From NCBI RefSeq assembly GCF_003334335.1, contig NZ_QOWQ01000001.1: a stretch of 64,000 nt of DNA. One strand, written 5' to 3'. Position 1 is the first letter of the stretch, and every line of letters starts with the position of its first letter. This stretch comes from Escherichia coli. GTDB lineage: Bacteria > Pseudomonadota > Gammaproteobacteria > Enterobacterales > Enterobacteriaceae. The position numbers are program-made. Of this stretch, positions 24,001-27,000 are shown piece by piece.

Positions 24001-27000
24001 TCCAGTGAACCAAAGTGTTCACGTAACCACGCGAGGTCAGCCATTGACTGAGTCGGGTGGTCAATATCGCATTGCAGGTTCACTAAAGCCGGACGCTGTG
24101 GCAGTACACCCTGCTTGTAACCGTCATCAAGTGCAGCGCCAACTTCACGCATATAGGCGTTGCCTGCGCCCAGATACATATCGTCGCGAATACCAATAGC
24201 GTCGGCGCAGAAGGAGATCATATTGGCGGTTTCACGCACGGTTTCGCCGTGAGCGATTTGTGATTTGCCTTCGTCGAGATCTTGTTGTGCAAGGCCGAGC
24301 AGGTTAAGCGCGGAAGCATAAGAGAAGCGGGTACGGGTGGAGTTGTCGCGGAATACGGAAATACCTAATCCACTATTAAAGACTTTGGTTGAGATGTTTT
24401 CAGCACGCAGTGCTTTTAATGCTGCGGCAACGTCCAGTACTTGTTTCAGTTCATCTGGCGTCTGTTCCCACGTTAACAAAAAATCTTTCTCGTGAAGGTG
24501 AGAGGTCAGCGAATTGATATCCTTAATCAGCTCATTAACAGTTTTCATCATAAAGTCCCGGTAGTGGAATGACAGGCAAAGTGGTTTATTTCACTGTGAC
24601 TTGCCAAAGTGATTGGTGTTTTCACAGCTATACCTGGGACTAACAATAAGTGTGCCAGAATTATCCGCGCGGCTGCAAAAGACTAATTTGACGGATAATG
24701 TGTGGGGTTGATCACAAATTGATGCCAGCTTCTGGTTGTTTGTAAAATACGAAAACGTTTGGCTTTTTTTATCGCGTTATTTATTTGCTGCTAAGTATCA
24801 GAAATAAGATAAAGGGGCAGGCTATCTCTCTTCAGTTTGATAAACTCACCGCCGTAATTCTCATATTGATATAGAAATGTGATATCTCTTCCATAATTTC
24901 ATTAGAAAATGATAAAAATCTTATGTTTTTATCAAAGCCAATTTCGCCTGAGTTAATATCATCATGATCTGTGAACCATCAACGTCTTCAATGATCGACT
25001 TTTAAGTAAGTCTGGAAGGTAAAGCTATGGAGCTTGCTACTACGCAGTCAGTATTGATGCAAATTCAACCGACAATTCAGCGTTTTGCCAGAATGCTTGC
25101 CAGCGTTTTGCAGCTTGAGGTTGAGATCGTTGATGAAAACTTGTGTCGCGTTGCCGGAACGGGCGCGTATGGGAAGTTTCTTGGTCGCCAGTTGAGCGGC
25201 AACTCACGCCTGCTCCGCCACGTCCTGGAAACGAAAACTGAAAAAGTTGTGACACAGTCTCGCTTCGATCCCCTTTGCGAAGGTTGCGATAGTAAAGAAA
25301 ATTGCCGCGAAAAAGCATTTCTGGGTACGCCTGTCATTTTACAGGATCGTTGTGTTGGGGTGATAAGTTTGATTGCCGTTACCCACGAGCAACAAGAGCA
25401 TATCAGTGATAATTTACGCGAATTTTCTGATTATGTTCGCCATATATCCACCATTTTTGTTTCGAAACTTCTGGAGGATCAGGGGCCAGGAGATAACATC
25501 AGTAAAATATTTGCGACCATGATCGATAATATGGATCAGGGCGTATTAGTTGTAGATGATGAAAATCGGGTTCAGTTTGTTAATCAGACTGCCTTAAAAA
25601 CACTTGGTGTTGTGCAAAATAATATTATTGGGAAACCTATCCGTTTCAGACCATTAACATTTGAGAGTAATTTTACCCATGGACATATGCAGCATATTGT
25701 TTCATGGGACGATAAAAGTGAATTAATCATTGGTCAATTGCATAACATTCAGGGCCGACAATTATTTTTAATGGCGTTTCACCAATCGCATACCAGTTTT
25801 TCTGTAGCAAATGCACCTGATGAACCGCATATTGAACAATTGGTTGGCGAGTGCCGTGTTATGCGGCAATTAAAACGACTCATTAGCCGTATTGCACCCA
25901 GCCCATCCAGCGTTATGGTGGTTGGTGAAAGCGGCACGGGTAAAGAAGTCGTCGCCCGTGCAATCCATAAGTTGAGCGGAAGACGGAATAAACCCTTTAT
26001 TGCTATCAACTGTGCCGCGATTCCGGAGCAGCTTCTGGAGAGCGAACTGTTCGGTTATGTTAAAGGTGCATTTACTGGCGCTTCTGCCAACGGTAAAACA
26101 GGGTTGATTCAGGCGGCGAATACGGGCACGCTGTTTCTCGATGAAATAGGTGATATGCCATTAATGTTGCAGGCTAAATTACTGCGCGCTATTGAGGCAC
26201 GTGAAATTCTGCCGATTGGTGCCAGTAGCCCAATACAAGTCGACATTCGCATCATTTCTGCAACTAATCAGAATTTGGCCCAGTTCATTGCCGAAGGTAA
26301 ATTCCGCGAAGATCTCTTCTACCGACTTAATGTTATCCCGATAACTCTGCCACCGCTGCGTGAACGTCAGGAAGATATTGAACTATTGGTGCATTACTTT
26401 TTACATCTGCATACCCGTCGTCTGGGATCGGTTTATCCTGGCATTGCTCCCGATGTCGTCGAAATATTGCGTAAGCATCGTTGGCCCGGAAACCTGCGCG
26501 AGTTAAGCAATTTGATGGAATATCTGGTTAACGTGGTTCCTTCAGGTGAAGTTATCGACAGCACGCTATTGCCGCCAAATCTGCTGAATAATGGCACAAC
26601 GGAGCAAAGTGATGTAACAGAGGTCAGTGAGGCGCACCTGTCACTCGATGATGCGGGCGGCACGGCGCTGGAGGAGATGGAAAAGCAAATGATCCGCGAG
26701 GCGCTTTCACGTCATAACAGCAAGAAGCAAGTTGCTGATGAACTGGGCATCGGCATTGCTACGCTCTATCGCAAGATTAAGAAATATGAGTTGTTAAACA
26801 CATAACCTCAGTGAATCCGGCCTGAATTCAGGCCGGATATCCTTTTACTTCGTTTTCTCGCAATCCAGAACTGTATTTACAATCATCTGATACCCCGTGC
26901 AGCGACAAAGATTTCCCGCCAGTCCGCGACGAATTTCCGTAATGGTTAATGGCTTCTCGCGTGGTTTCGCCAGCATTGCCGTGGTAGCCATAATCAGGCC

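What the first reader, a model, noticed from the sequence alone, without database searches (positions are those of the whole stretch)
24552..25026. Divergent ygeW / ygeV control region with only an imperfect sigma-54 element
YgeV has the GAFTGA motif, so at least one nearby promoter should be sigma-54 dependent. The best -24/-12 candidate for ygeW (minus strand TGGCAC-N5-TTGTT, 24641-24660) has a T in place of the normally conserved -12 C. The 475-bp intergenic region is AT-rich and contains several short inverted repeats that could be enhancer sites.
Basis: partly seen in the sequence, partly recalled or inferred. Interest (0 to 1): 0.4.

Follow-up and report, generated by a model that had tools for sequence, protein, structure and literature searches.

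The report
Sigma-54 promoter and enhancer of ygeW
The gap between E. coli ygeW and ygeV holds a real but already mapped sigma-54 promoter whose odd -12 base is conserved and tolerated, plus the enhancer site for the YgeV activator and a CRP site, which together switch on anaerobic uric-acid breakdown genes.

Summary
CTGGCACACTTATTGTT lies at 24642-24658 on the minus strand, 80 nt before ygeW. It has T where C is usual at -12, and it is the only sigma-54-like site in the 475-bp, 37% GC spacer.

It is not new. Bonocora 2015 lists exactly this 17-mer as ChIP-seq site OS30 (weak, FAT 3), and Shimada 2021 found an RpoN-holoenzyme gSELEX peak in this spacer. The T is tolerated: 4 of 135 bound sites have it, including pspA and pspG. 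It is also conserved in Enterobacter sp. Bisph1 and in 11 E. coli lineages.

The "inverted repeats" reduce to one convincing enhancer, AATTCTCATATTGATATAG (24856-24874, about -234). It matches the TTATCA-N3-TGATAA motif predicted for the clostridial YgeV homologue DioR. A matrix built only from non-E. coli sites ranks it first in the window.

A CRP-like site (24701-24716, -77.5) lies between enhancer and promoter. Similar sites occur upstream of all five sigma-54 sites of this cluster and of none of 16 control promoters.

Verdict: an ordinary enhancer-dependent promoter that is already known. The E. coli enhancer assignment and the cluster-wide CRP layout are modest new details.

The parts
24642..24658 (-). 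Sigma-54 promoter of ygeW, CTGGCACACTTATTGTT. The -24 GG is at 24656/24655. The -12 element is GT (24644/24643) instead of GC.
   Evidence: It is the only PSSM hit in the spacer. It is identical to ChIP-seq site OS30 of Bonocora 2015, and a gSELEX peak lies in this spacer. A 19/20-identical block is present in Enterobacter sp. Bisph1. GG and TTGTT are invariant in 11 E. coli lineages.
24631..24631 (-). Predicted transcription start of ygeW, 19 nt downstream of the motif centre. This gives an 80-nt leader to the ATG at 24551.
   Evidence: Inferred with the rule used by Bonocora 2015, who list a distance of 80. It has not been mapped experimentally.
24701..24716 (.). CRP-like site TGTGGGGTTGATCACA, matching 9 of 10 core positions and centred at about -77.5.
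   Evidence: It is conserved in Enterobacter Bisph1 as TGTGATAAGGATCACT at -78.5. It shows no SNP in 11 E. coli. PMC12507026 mentions a native Crp site in this spacer.
24856..24874 (.). Main upstream activating sequence (enhancer) for YgeV, AATTCTCATATTGATATAG. It is a palindrome of the TTATCA-N3-TGATAA type, centred at about -234 from the ygeW start and 162 bp before the ygeV ATG.
   Evidence: It ranks first of the 64-kb window with a matrix built only from non-E. coli sites, at 15.7 bits. The core 14-mer is shared with the ygfT upstream region. It is conserved in Bisph1 at -235. It matches published DioR sites.
24954..24972 (.). Degenerate distal copy of the palindrome, TAATATCATCATGATCTGT (13-mer core TATCATCATGATC at 24957-24969), centred at about -332.
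   Evidence: It has 1 mismatch to TATCA-N3-TGATA. The orthologous Bisph1 copy scores 14.4 bits at the same -332 position. The E. coli copy scores below 3 bits. IS1 is inserted here in some strains.
24830..24842 (.). Weak half-palindrome CTTCAGTTTGATA (2 mismatches). The right half TGATAAA is conserved in Bisph1. It may be an auxiliary YgeV site.
25027..26805 (+). ygeV, encoding a bacterial enhancer-binding protein. Domains: N-terminal Cys-containing sensor region, PAS, AAA+ sigma-54 interaction domain with GAFTGA, and a Fis-type HTH.
   Evidence: Pfam scan and motif positions.
23361..24551 (-). ygeW, a knotted carbamoyltransferase. It is the first gene of the ygeW-ygeX-ygeY-hyuA-yqeA run that this promoter serves.
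   Evidence: Annotation. Its role in reductive urate degradation is described in PMC12507026.

Best explanation
The ygeW-ygeV spacer is a standard divergent control region for an enhancer-dependent promoter.

- **Closed complex.** RNA polymerase carrying sigma-54 sits in a closed complex on CTGGCACACTTATTGTT (24642-24658, minus strand). Binding is shown by published ChIP-seq and gSELEX.
- **Activation.** YgeV is a sensor-PAS-AAA+-HTH activator. It binds the palindrome AATTCTCATATTGATATAG about 234 bp upstream of the start, with weaker copies nearby. It is inferred to assemble into an ATPase ring once its still unknown purine- or urate-related signal is present. It would then loop over to the polymerase and use its GAFTGA loops to open the promoter, turning on ygeW-ygeX-ygeY-hyuA-yqeA.
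- **The -12 T.** The T at -12 is an old, conserved variant of the kind also seen at pspA and pspG. It probably lowers polymerase occupancy (inferred from FAT 3 here against 11 and 26 at xdhA and ygfK) without abolishing function.
- **CRP.** A CRP site centred at -77.5 sits inside the loop. It most likely couples the promoter to carbon status, by bending the DNA, by contacting the polymerase, or by driving the divergent ygeV promoter. This is inferred, and whether CRP acts positively or negatively here has not been shown.
- **ygeV itself.** ygeV has no sigma-54 element, so it must use another sigma factor from an unmapped promoter.
For: **Promoter**
- Exact identity with ChIP-seq site OS30, which points at ygeW at a distance of 80.
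- An RpoN-holoenzyme gSELEX peak at 53-55% of the maximum lies in this spacer.
- The leave-out PSSM score is at the 31st percentile of 130 bound sites. It is the only site in the spacer on either strand.
- The 17-mer, T included, is conserved in Enterobacter sp. Bisph1 within a 19/20-identical island.
- Bonocora's Table S5 gives scores of 9.5-10.5 in Citrobacter, Yokenella and Raoultella.
- The -12 T is shared by pspA and pspG.

**Regulon**
- The YgeV iModulon contains xdhABC, ygeWXY and ygfT. [quoted passage not shown]

**Activator**
- GAFTGA, Walker A, Sigma54_activat and HTH_8 domains are all present.

**Enhancer**
- TATCA-N3-TGATA with <=1 mismatch occurs 5 times in the four spacers upstream of the ygeW, xdhA, ygfK and ygfT promoters. 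Shuffles give 0.10 on average, and none of 2000 reached 5.
- A matrix built from 29 non-E. coli sites ranks 24856-24874 first and the ygfK site second in the window. It picks the ygfT site as the only hit scoring >=9 bits in L002.
- Published DioR sites in Clostridia have the same motif upstream of the same genes.
- Three exact copies lie 115-285 bp upstream of sigma-54 promoters next to YgeV homologues in Sedimentibacter, Clostridium thailandense and Propionigenium.
- The recognition helix LGIGIATLYRK is shared by the homologues that carry the motif and differs in paralogues that lack it.
- The distance from enhancer to -24 agrees within 1 bp between E. coli and Bisph1, despite indels in between.

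**CRP**
- A conserved site with 9 of 10 core positions.
- 5 of 5 sigma-54 sites in the cluster have a CRP-like site centred between -60 and -100, against 0 of 16 control promoters.
- Urate degradation is glucose-repressed, and a Crp site is noted in this spacer.
Against: - No transcription start has been mapped for ygeW.
- No rpoN, ygeV or crp dependence of ygeW transcription was found in the papers I could read.
- ChIP occupancy is low (FAT 3).
- E. coli has only one strong copy of the palindrome, at the unusually long distance of about -234. It lies nearer to ygeV than to the promoter, so it could serve mainly ygeV autoregulation.
- I derived the palindrome post hoc in E. coli. The cross-species matrix test removes most of that circularity, but not all of it.
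- Published effects of CRP on sigma-54 promoters are inhibitory, whereas the physiology suggests a positive role here.
- No YgeV-DNA binding experiment is available.
Confidence: 0.78

Rival explanations
1. The site binds sigma-54 polymerase but is not the productive ygeW promoter. ygeW would instead be transcribed by a sigma-70 polymerase activated by CRP, with the sigma-54 complex acting as a bystander or roadblock.
For: - Occupancy is weak (FAT 3) and the -12 element is non-consensus.
- A good CRP site lies nearby, and the pathway is glucose-repressed.
- Bonocora and Shimada both stress that many sigma-54 binding sites are not productive promoters.
Against: - No acceptable sigma-70 promoter faces ygeW. 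The one consensus match overlaps the start codon, and the number of matches equals the shuffle expectation.
- The 17-mer is the best-conserved island of the spacer across genera.
- ygeWXY co-varies with other sigma-54 operons of the cluster.
- In Firmicutes and Fusobacteria the same genes sit behind canonical sigma-54 promoters next to YgeV homologues.
Confidence: 0.08
2. The TATCA-N3-TGATA palindromes in this spacer are operators through which YgeV, or another AT-rich-binding regulator such as a Fur-like protein, controls ygeV itself. They would not be enhancers for ygeW.
For: - The main copy is 162 bp and the distal copy 64 bp before the ygeV ATG, both closer to ygeV than to the ygeW promoter.
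- The ygfK copy resembles a Fur box (my own reading of the sequence).
- Sedimentibacter also has one copy upstream of its ygeV homologue.
Against: - The same motif lies upstream of xdhA, ygfK and ygfT, where no regulator gene is adjacent.
- In three other phyla it lies between the activator gene and the next sigma-54 promoter.
- The distance to the -24 element is conserved within 1 bp between E. coli and Bisph1.
- Dual use, as enhancer and autoregulatory operator, is common in divergent activator/target pairs (my background knowledge). The two roles are therefore not exclusive.
Confidence: 0.1
3. The CRP site serves only the divergent ygeV promoter. It would raise YgeV levels when glucose is absent and have no direct role at the sigma-54 promoter.
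For: - The arrangement is divergent.
- There is a sigma-70-like match on the + strand: TTGATG-18-TAAAAT, 24719-24748, just downstream of the CRP site.
- Known direct CRP effects on sigma-54 promoters are negative.
Against: - That sigma-70 match is no better than chance and is not conserved in Bisph1.
- CRP-like sites sit at -67.5 to -97.5 from all five sigma-54 sites of the cluster, including xdhA, ygfK and the yqeC-internal site, where no divergent regulator gene exists. None is found at 16 control promoters.
Confidence: 0.25

Closest known systems
pspA and pspG promoters of E. coli (PspF-dependent sigma-54 promoters)
   Same: Both are confirmed sigma-54 promoters whose -12 element reads TTGT instead of TTGC (TTGGCACGCAAATTGTA and TTGGCATGATTCTTGTA). 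Both are bound in vivo. pspF and pspA are also divergent.
   Different: They use a different activator, PspF, which has no sensor domain. Their ChIP occupancy is higher (FAT 21 and 15, against 3 here). No CRP-like site lies upstream of pspA.
DioR sigma-54 regulon of Clostridia (Nie et al. 2019, PMC6615313)
   Same: - The gene set is the same: dpaL, ygeW-ygfK-ssnA-ygeY, yqeB, xdh.
- The activator is homologous, judged from full-length YgeV homologues in other Clostridia and in Fusobacteria (36-38% identity; the published DioR proteins themselves were not compared here). These homologues carry the same recognition helix.
- The palindrome is the same, TTATCA-N3-TGATAA or TTCTCA-N3-TGAGAA. In the published table its start-codon-relative position lies 70-240 bp further upstream than that of the sigma-54 promoter.
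   Different: The clostridial promoters have a canonical TTGCT at -12 and usually two or three strong palindromes. They have no CRP site. In E. coli the genes are split over several operons. The regulon was a computational prediction with function listed as unknown.
xdhA, ygfK and ygfT promoters of the same E. coli cluster
   Same: All are sigma-54 ChIP sites (OS29, OS31, OS32). Each has a YgeV-type palindrome at -152 to -202 and a CRP-like site at -67.5 to -97.5. All belong to the YgeV iModulon.
   Different: xdhA and ygfK have a canonical -12 GC and higher occupancy. ygfT deviates at -24 instead (TATGCC). Only ygeW is divergent from the activator gene.
CRP action at the sigma-54 promoters dctA, glnAp2 and Pu
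   Same: In each case CRP-cAMP acts on a promoter-bound sigma-54 polymerase from upstream.
   Different: In those cases CRP inhibits. At Pu and glnAp2 it is recruited without a strong site. Here good, position-conserved sites exist and the pathway is glucose-repressed, which suggests a positive or at least different role.

Membership tests
Sigma-54 (RpoN) -24/-12 promoter | GG doublet at -24 within TGGCAC, at fixed spacing from the -12 element (TGGCAC-N5-TTGC) | tested here: met
   TGGCAC-ACTTA-TTGT at 24642-24657 (-), with the correct 5-nt spacer.
Sigma-54 (RpoN) -24/-12 promoter | -12 element: conserved G of the GC doublet, and an overall match within the range of sites bound in vivo. The C is preferred but not obligatory: 125 of 135 bound sites have it. 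| tested here: met
   The G is present at 24644. The C is replaced by T, as in 4 of 135 bound sites including pspA and pspG. The leave-out PSSM score is 13.4 bits, the 31st percentile of 130 bound sites.
Sigma-54 (RpoN) -24/-12 promoter | Intergenic, pointing at a gene at a plausible distance | tested here: met
   It lies on the same strand as ygeW, with a predicted start 80 nt before the ATG.
Sigma-54 (RpoN) -24/-12 promoter | Bound by sigma-54 holoenzyme | not testable with these tools
   Published evidence exists: ChIP-seq OS30, FAT 3, and an RpoN-holoenzyme gSELEX peak at 53-55%.
Sigma-54 (RpoN) -24/-12 promoter | Transcription depends on rpoN and on an enhancer-binding protein, with the start mapped about 12 nt downstream of the -12 element | not testable with these tools
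   Only indirect evidence is available, namely membership of the YgeV iModulon. No start-site or mutant data for ygeW were found.
Bacterial enhancer-binding protein (YgeV) | AAA+ sigma-54 interaction domain with Walker A and the GAFTGA loop, plus a C-terminal Fis-type HTH | tested here: met
   Sigma54_activat 272-439 (E = 2e-70), HTH_8 548-587, GESGTGK at 300, GAFTGA at 347.
YgeV/DioR-type enhancer (UAS) | Palindrome TTATCA-N3-TGATAA (half-site variant TTCTCA) 100-300 bp upstream of a sigma-54 promoter of the uricolytic genes | tested here: met
   24856-24874 scores 15.7 bits with a matrix built from 29 non-E. coli sites, rank 1 of 64 kb. It is 15/17 identical to the C. difficile site AATTCTCGTATTGATAAAA.
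YgeV/DioR-type enhancer (UAS) | Conserved at the orthologous position in a related genome whose activator has the same recognition helix | tested here: met
   Bisph1 has AATTATCATTTTGATAATG at -235 (22.9 bits) and a second copy at -332. The helix IATLYRKIKKY is identical.
YgeV/DioR-type enhancer (UAS) | Physically bound by YgeV | not testable with these tools
   No binding data were found.
CRP binding site | TGTGA-N6-TCACA core | tested here: met
   TGTGGGGTTGATCACA matches 9 of 10 core positions. It is conserved in Bisph1 at the same distance from -24, 53 against 54 bp.
CRP binding site | Bound by cAMP-CRP, with an effect on transcription | not testable with these tools
   PMC12507026 refers to a native Crp-binding site in this spacer and shows glucose repression of urate degradation. 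The coordinates of that site are not given.
IHF-assisted sigma-54 promoter | IHF consensus WATCAANNNNTTR between enhancer and promoter | tested here: not met
   No match, even with one position relaxed, in E. coli or Bisph1.

The most novel reading that the evidence does not exclude
CRP may be a built-in positive partner of the sigma-54 promoters of the whole YgeV purine/urate regulon. A CRP site centred at -67.5, -77.5 or -97.5 (steps of 10 to 20 bp, so on one face of the helix) would replace IHF as the bending element, or would recruit polymerase to weak promoters such as ygeW with its -12 T. Catabolite control would then be exerted directly on sigma-54 closed complexes. That is the opposite sign to every CRP/sigma-54 case described so far.
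Probability: 0.3. Interest if true: 0.55.

Novelty: already known. Interest (0 to 1): 0.3.

Why it matters
The ygeW operon and its neighbours encode the recently solved reductive uric-acid degradation pathway of gut bacteria, and engineered strains already replace this very spacer to treat hyperuricaemia in mice (PMC12507026). Three practical gains follow from knowing where the promoter, the YgeV enhancer and the CRP site lie:

- **Pathway engineering.** It shows which native elements such a promoter swap removes.
- **Finding the signal.** It gives precise targets for identifying what YgeV senses.
- **Transfer across phyla.** It links the E. coli regulon to the clostridial DioR regulon, so results can move between them.

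The conserved -12 T and the cluster-wide CRP layout offer a compact natural system for asking how promoter strength and catabolite control are combined at enhancer-dependent promoters.

Tried and rejected
- **Generic repeat search of the spacer** gave only weak inverted repeats (70-83% complementary), none convincing on its own.
- **IHF consensus:** no match.
- **Sigma-70 promoter for ygeV:** consensus matches equal the shuffle expectation, and the one + strand match is not conserved in Bisph1, so the ygeV promoter remains unassigned.
- **Sigma-54 element facing ygeV:** none above 4 bits.
- **RNA elements and small ORFs:** no Rfam family at E <= 1 and no credible small ORF.
- **Within-species variation:** 39 of 475 spacer positions vary among 11 lineages. 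This is too little to show constraint. It only shows that GG, TTGTT, the CRP core and the palindrome core are unchanged, and that the two promoter SNPs fall at tolerated positions.
- **A "repaired" C at -12:** a search of 5426 E. coli genomes found no exact match to that variant. A C variant combined with a second SNP cannot be excluded this way.
- **Wider orthologue sampling failed.** The protein search was saturated by E. coli variants.
- **Literature dead ends.** "UacR" returned only clinical papers. Iwadate & Kato 2019 is not held.
- **Fur-box reading of the palindromes:** considered and set aside, because the motif travels with YgeV homologues across phyla.
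Full report
**Identity of the region**

The window is E. coli K-12-type chromosome. The 1-kb stretch around the finding is 100% identical to MG1655 and is present in 5182 of 5426 complete E. coli genomes. The annotation places it in the xdh/yge/ygf purine-urate cluster.

ygeW is the ORF 23361..24551 (-) and ygeV is 25027..26805 (+). RefSeq uses the second of two adjacent ATGs for ygeW.

**Checking the observation**

The minus strand reads CTGGCACACTTATTGTT at 24642-24658. That is TGGCAC, a 5-nt spacer, then TTGTT, with T at 24643 where the consensus has the C of the -12 GC doublet.

YgeV carries GAFTGA at residues 347-352 and Walker A at residue 300. Pfam finds Sigma54_activat (E = 2e-70), an AAA lid, HTH_8 and a PAS segment. 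The spacer is 37.1% GC against 45.9% for the window.

The bare pattern is not rare. With two mismatches allowed there are 53 hits against 41 expected. I therefore built a position matrix from the 135 ChIP-seq motifs printed in Bonocora et al. 2015, leaving out the five that lie in or next to this window.

- The ygeW site scores 13.4 bits, which is the 31st percentile of the 130 bound training sites and rank 6 of the window on both strands.
- It is the only position in the spacer, on either strand, above 4 bits.
- There is therefore one candidate, it faces ygeW, and ygeV has no sigma-54 element of its own.

**What is already published**

- Table 1 of Bonocora et al. 2015 (PMC4591121) lists OS30 with motif CTGGCACACTTATTGTT. 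It is assigned to ygeW at a distance of 80 nt, with FAT 3 and no EcoCyc promoter recorded at that time.
- The neighbouring promoters are xdhA (OS29, FAT 11), ygfK (OS31, FAT 26) and ygfT (OS32, FAT 3). There is also an intragenic site in yqeC (IS34, FAT 7).
- Shimada et al. 2021 (PMC8743547) report an in vitro gSELEX peak of purified RpoN holoenzyme in the ygeV/ygeW spacer, at 53-55% of the top peak with a cut-off of 30%.
- Lamoureux et al. 2023 (PMC10602906) define a YgeV iModulon that contains xdhABC, ygeWXY and ygfT. They cite reduced ygfT expression in a ygeV mutant.

**How unusual is the T at -12?**

At that position the 135 bound sites have C 125 times, A 6 times and T 4 times. The four with T are ygeW, the confirmed promoters pspA (TTGGCACGCAAATTGTA) and pspG (TTGGCATGATTCTTGTA), and one antisense site. 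The variant is rare but has functional precedent.

The T is also conserved.

- In Enterobacter sp. Bisph1 (YgeV 69% identical) the orthologous spacer reads CTGGCACAGTTATTGTT. This lies inside a 19/20-identical island in an otherwise poorly conserved spacer.
- Bonocora's Table S5 gives motif scores of 9.46, 9.84 and 10.55 for Citrobacter, Yokenella and Raoultella, against 9.84 for E. coli. These values are too close to allow a change to C, which would add several bits (this last step is my inference).
- Among K-12 and ten E. coli lineages chosen across the identity range, GG and TTGTT never vary. The two SNPs inside the 17-mer fall at tolerated positions: the spacer base found in Bisph1, and TGGCAC to TGGCAT.
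- No E. coli genome exactly matches a version with C restored.

In Firmicutes and Fusobacteria the corresponding promoters are canonical TTGCT. The T is therefore an enterobacterial trait.

From general knowledge of sigma-54 promoters (work of Gralla and Buck on the -12 fork-junction region, recalled and not checked here), -12 changes can lower closed-complex stability or loosen the block on melting. The low FAT value fits the first effect.

**The enhancer**

The generic repeat search gave only weak inverted repeats. Comparing the spacers upstream of the four sigma-54 promoters of the iModulon was more informative.

- It revealed a shared 14-mer, TCTCATATTGATAT, in the ygeV/ygeW and uacT/ygfT spacers, with close relatives upstream of xdhA and ygfK.
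- The common core is the palindrome TATCA-N3-TGATA.
- With at most one mismatch it occurs 5 times in these four spacers. Dinucleotide shuffles give 0.10 on average, and none of 2000 reached 5.
- In the whole window it occurs 8 times against 2.3 expected, and half of those hits lie in these spacers.

Because I derived the motif from these sequences, I looked for independent support.

1. Nie et al. 2019 (PMC6615313) predicted a clostridial sigma-54 regulon named DioR, with function listed as unknown. It covers dpaL, ygeW-ygfK-ssnA-ygeY, yqeB and xdh genes. Its listed activator sites include ATTTATCATAATGATAAGG and AATTCTCGTATTGATAAAA, which is the same palindrome. The variant TTCTCA half-site seen in E. 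coli is included.
2. Full-length YgeV homologues were fetched by protein similarity from Sedimentibacter, Clostridium thailandense and Propionigenium (36-38% identity). Each has three exact copies 115-285 bp upstream of a strong sigma-54 promoter. Where downstream genes could be identified, these promoters lead into dpaL-ygeW-ygeY-ygfK-type genes (Sedimentibacter, Propionigenium) or xdh genes (C. thailandense). Another C. thailandense paralogue uses a 4-nt spacer.
3. The HTH segment LGIGIATLYRK is shared by the homologues that have the motif. It differs (LGIS..TLYRK) in paralogues that lack it.
4. I built a symmetrised matrix from 29 non-E. coli sites only.
   - It ranks 24856-24874 (AATTCTCATATTGATATAG, 15.7 bits) first in the 64-kb window.
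   - The ygfK site is second, a site inside yqeC third, and the xdhA site sixth.
   - The ygfT site is the only hit scoring >=9 bits in the adjacent 11.7 kb.
5. Bisph1 has perfect copies at the orthologous position (-235, against -234 in E. coli) and upstream of its ygfK-type promoter.
   - It has a second copy at -332, exactly where E. coli has a degenerate one.
   - The distances to the -24 element agree within 1 bp although the intervening alignment contains several indels.

I conclude that 24856-24874 is the YgeV enhancer. YgeV is the proteobacterial counterpart of DioR.

**The CRP site**

TGTGGGGTTGATCACA (24701-24716) matches 9 of 10 CRP core positions. It is centred at about -77.5 from the predicted start. 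Bisph1 has TGTGATAAGGATCACT at -78.5.

Wei et al. 2025 (PMC12507026) mention a native Crp-binding site in this spacer. They also show that urate degradation is glucose-repressed in wild type, and that the repression is lost when the spacer is replaced.

All five sigma-54 ChIP sites of the cluster have a CRP-like site (<=2 mismatches) centred between -60 and -100:

| Sigma-54 site | Centre of CRP-like site |
|---|---|
| xdhA | -67.5 |
| ygeW | -77.5 |
| yqeC-internal | -78.5 |
| ygfK | -97.5 (perfect core) and -67.5 |
| ygfT | -68.5 |

- Shuffled upstream regions give 0.086 of 5 on average, with at most 2 in 3000 trials.
- Random anchor points in the window give 1.5%.
- None of 16 well-established sigma-54 promoters elsewhere in MG1655 has such a site: norV, hydN, hycA, hypA, prpB, glnK, glnH, pspA, astC, nac, argT, rtcB, glnA, zraP, zraS and fdhF. 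Five of 5 against 0 of 16 gives a Fisher p of about 5e-5.
- No IHF consensus is present in the spacer.

Published CRP effects at sigma-54 promoters (dctA, glnAp2, Pu) are inhibitory. The role here is therefore open. CRP could act as a bending or recruiting partner, as a brake, or through ygeV expression.

**Mechanism, with status of each step**

| Step | Status |
|---|---|
| Sigma-54 holoenzyme binds the site | Shown in the literature |
| The site is conserved and correctly placed | Shown here |
| The YgeV-family palindrome is at -234 | Shown here |
| A conserved CRP-like site is at -77.5 | Shown here |
| YgeV binds the palindrome, oligomerises on an unknown signal, loops to the promoter and opens it by ATP hydrolysis | Inferred |
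| The T at -12 weakens occupancy | Inferred |
| CRP adjusts loop geometry or polymerase recruitment | Inferred |
| ygeV is read from an unmapped promoter of another sigma factor | Inferred |

**Rivals considered**

I considered three rivals:

- a non-productive sigma-54 site combined with a sigma-70/CRP promoter for ygeW;
- palindromes that act only as ygeV operators or belong to another regulator;
- CRP acting only on ygeV.

The first two are unlikely, given the cross-phylum architecture and the absence of any credible sigma-70 promoter. The third remains possible, but it does not explain the CRP-like sites at promoters that have no divergent regulator gene.

**Novelty and verdict**

The finding as written, a sigma-54 element with an imperfect -12 upstream of ygeW, is correct and already in the literature. 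The system is an ordinary enhancer-dependent promoter.

In the papers I could search, I did not find the following for E. coli:

- the assignment of the E. coli YgeV enhancer sites;
- their identity with the clostridial DioR motif;
- the conservation of the -12 T;
- the cluster-specific CRP layout.

These are incremental, testable additions. Interest is modest.

Noticed in passing
window 24963-24971: In E. coli strain CFS3273 an IS1 element (777 bp including a 9-bp duplication, CATGATCTG) is inserted here. The position is inside the degenerate distal YgeV-type palindrome, 56 bp before the ygeV start. Two other strains in the top hits also carry an IS1 between ygeW and ygeV.
   Followed up: partly
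window 16098-16416 (inside yqeC): The intragenic sigma-54 ChIP site IS34 (16157-16173, +, pointing at yqeB) has a CRP-like site, TGTGACGTAATTCTCA, centred at -78.5. A YgeV-type palindrome, TTTTCTCAATGTGAGAATG (16398-16416), lies about 220 bp downstream of it. This palindrome ranks third in the window with the non-E. coli matrix. In Clostridia yqeB is part of the DioR regulon.
   Followed up: partly
window 14826-15026 (upstream of ygfK): There is a perfect CRP core, TGTGAATGAACTCACA (14905-14920, -97.5). A perfect palindrome, TATCATTATGATA (15011-15023, -202), also lies upstream of the ygfK sigma-54 promoter. Its 17-mer TTATCATAATGATAAGG is identical to a published C. botulinum DioR site.
   Followed up: partly
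window 23015-23027 (inside ygeX/dpaL): An exact TATCAAGATGATA palindrome lies within the coding sequence. It may be chance or an internal site.
   Followed up: no
window 25276-25305 (YgeV residues 84-93): The N-terminal region of YgeV contains C-x2-C-x5-C (CEGCDSKENC). The three cysteines are invariant in all seven homologues aligned from Proteobacteria, Firmicutes and Fusobacteria. This suggests a metal- or redox-sensing site in the still uncharacterised sensor domain.
   Followed up: partly
window 24762-24769, 24808-24821, 24833-24845: Three blocks are conserved between E. coli and Enterobacter sp. Bisph1 and have no assigned function: GCTTTTTT, GATAAAGGGGCAGG and CAGTTTGATAAAC. They could include the unmapped ygeV promoter or auxiliary YgeV half-sites.
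   Followed up: no
window 24546-24551: ygeW has two adjacent ATG codons. The longest ORF starts at 24551, while RefSeq annotates the second ATG at 24548.
   Followed up: no
window 60030-60046 (+), 33810-33826 (-), 59368-59384 (+): These positions score as high as, or higher than, the ygeW site with the sigma-54 matrix (15.0, 13.6 and 13.5 bits). They are not among the 135 high-stringency ChIP sites. This illustrates that sequence score alone does not predict binding.
   Followed up: no
loci L003-L012: The genome scan returned only one enterobacterial YgeV orthologue (Enterobacter sp. Bisph1, 69%). The next full-length relatives, at 34-38% identity, are from Firmicutes and Fusobacteria and sit in the same gene neighbourhood. 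This hints at horizontal origin of the cluster.
   Followed up: partly
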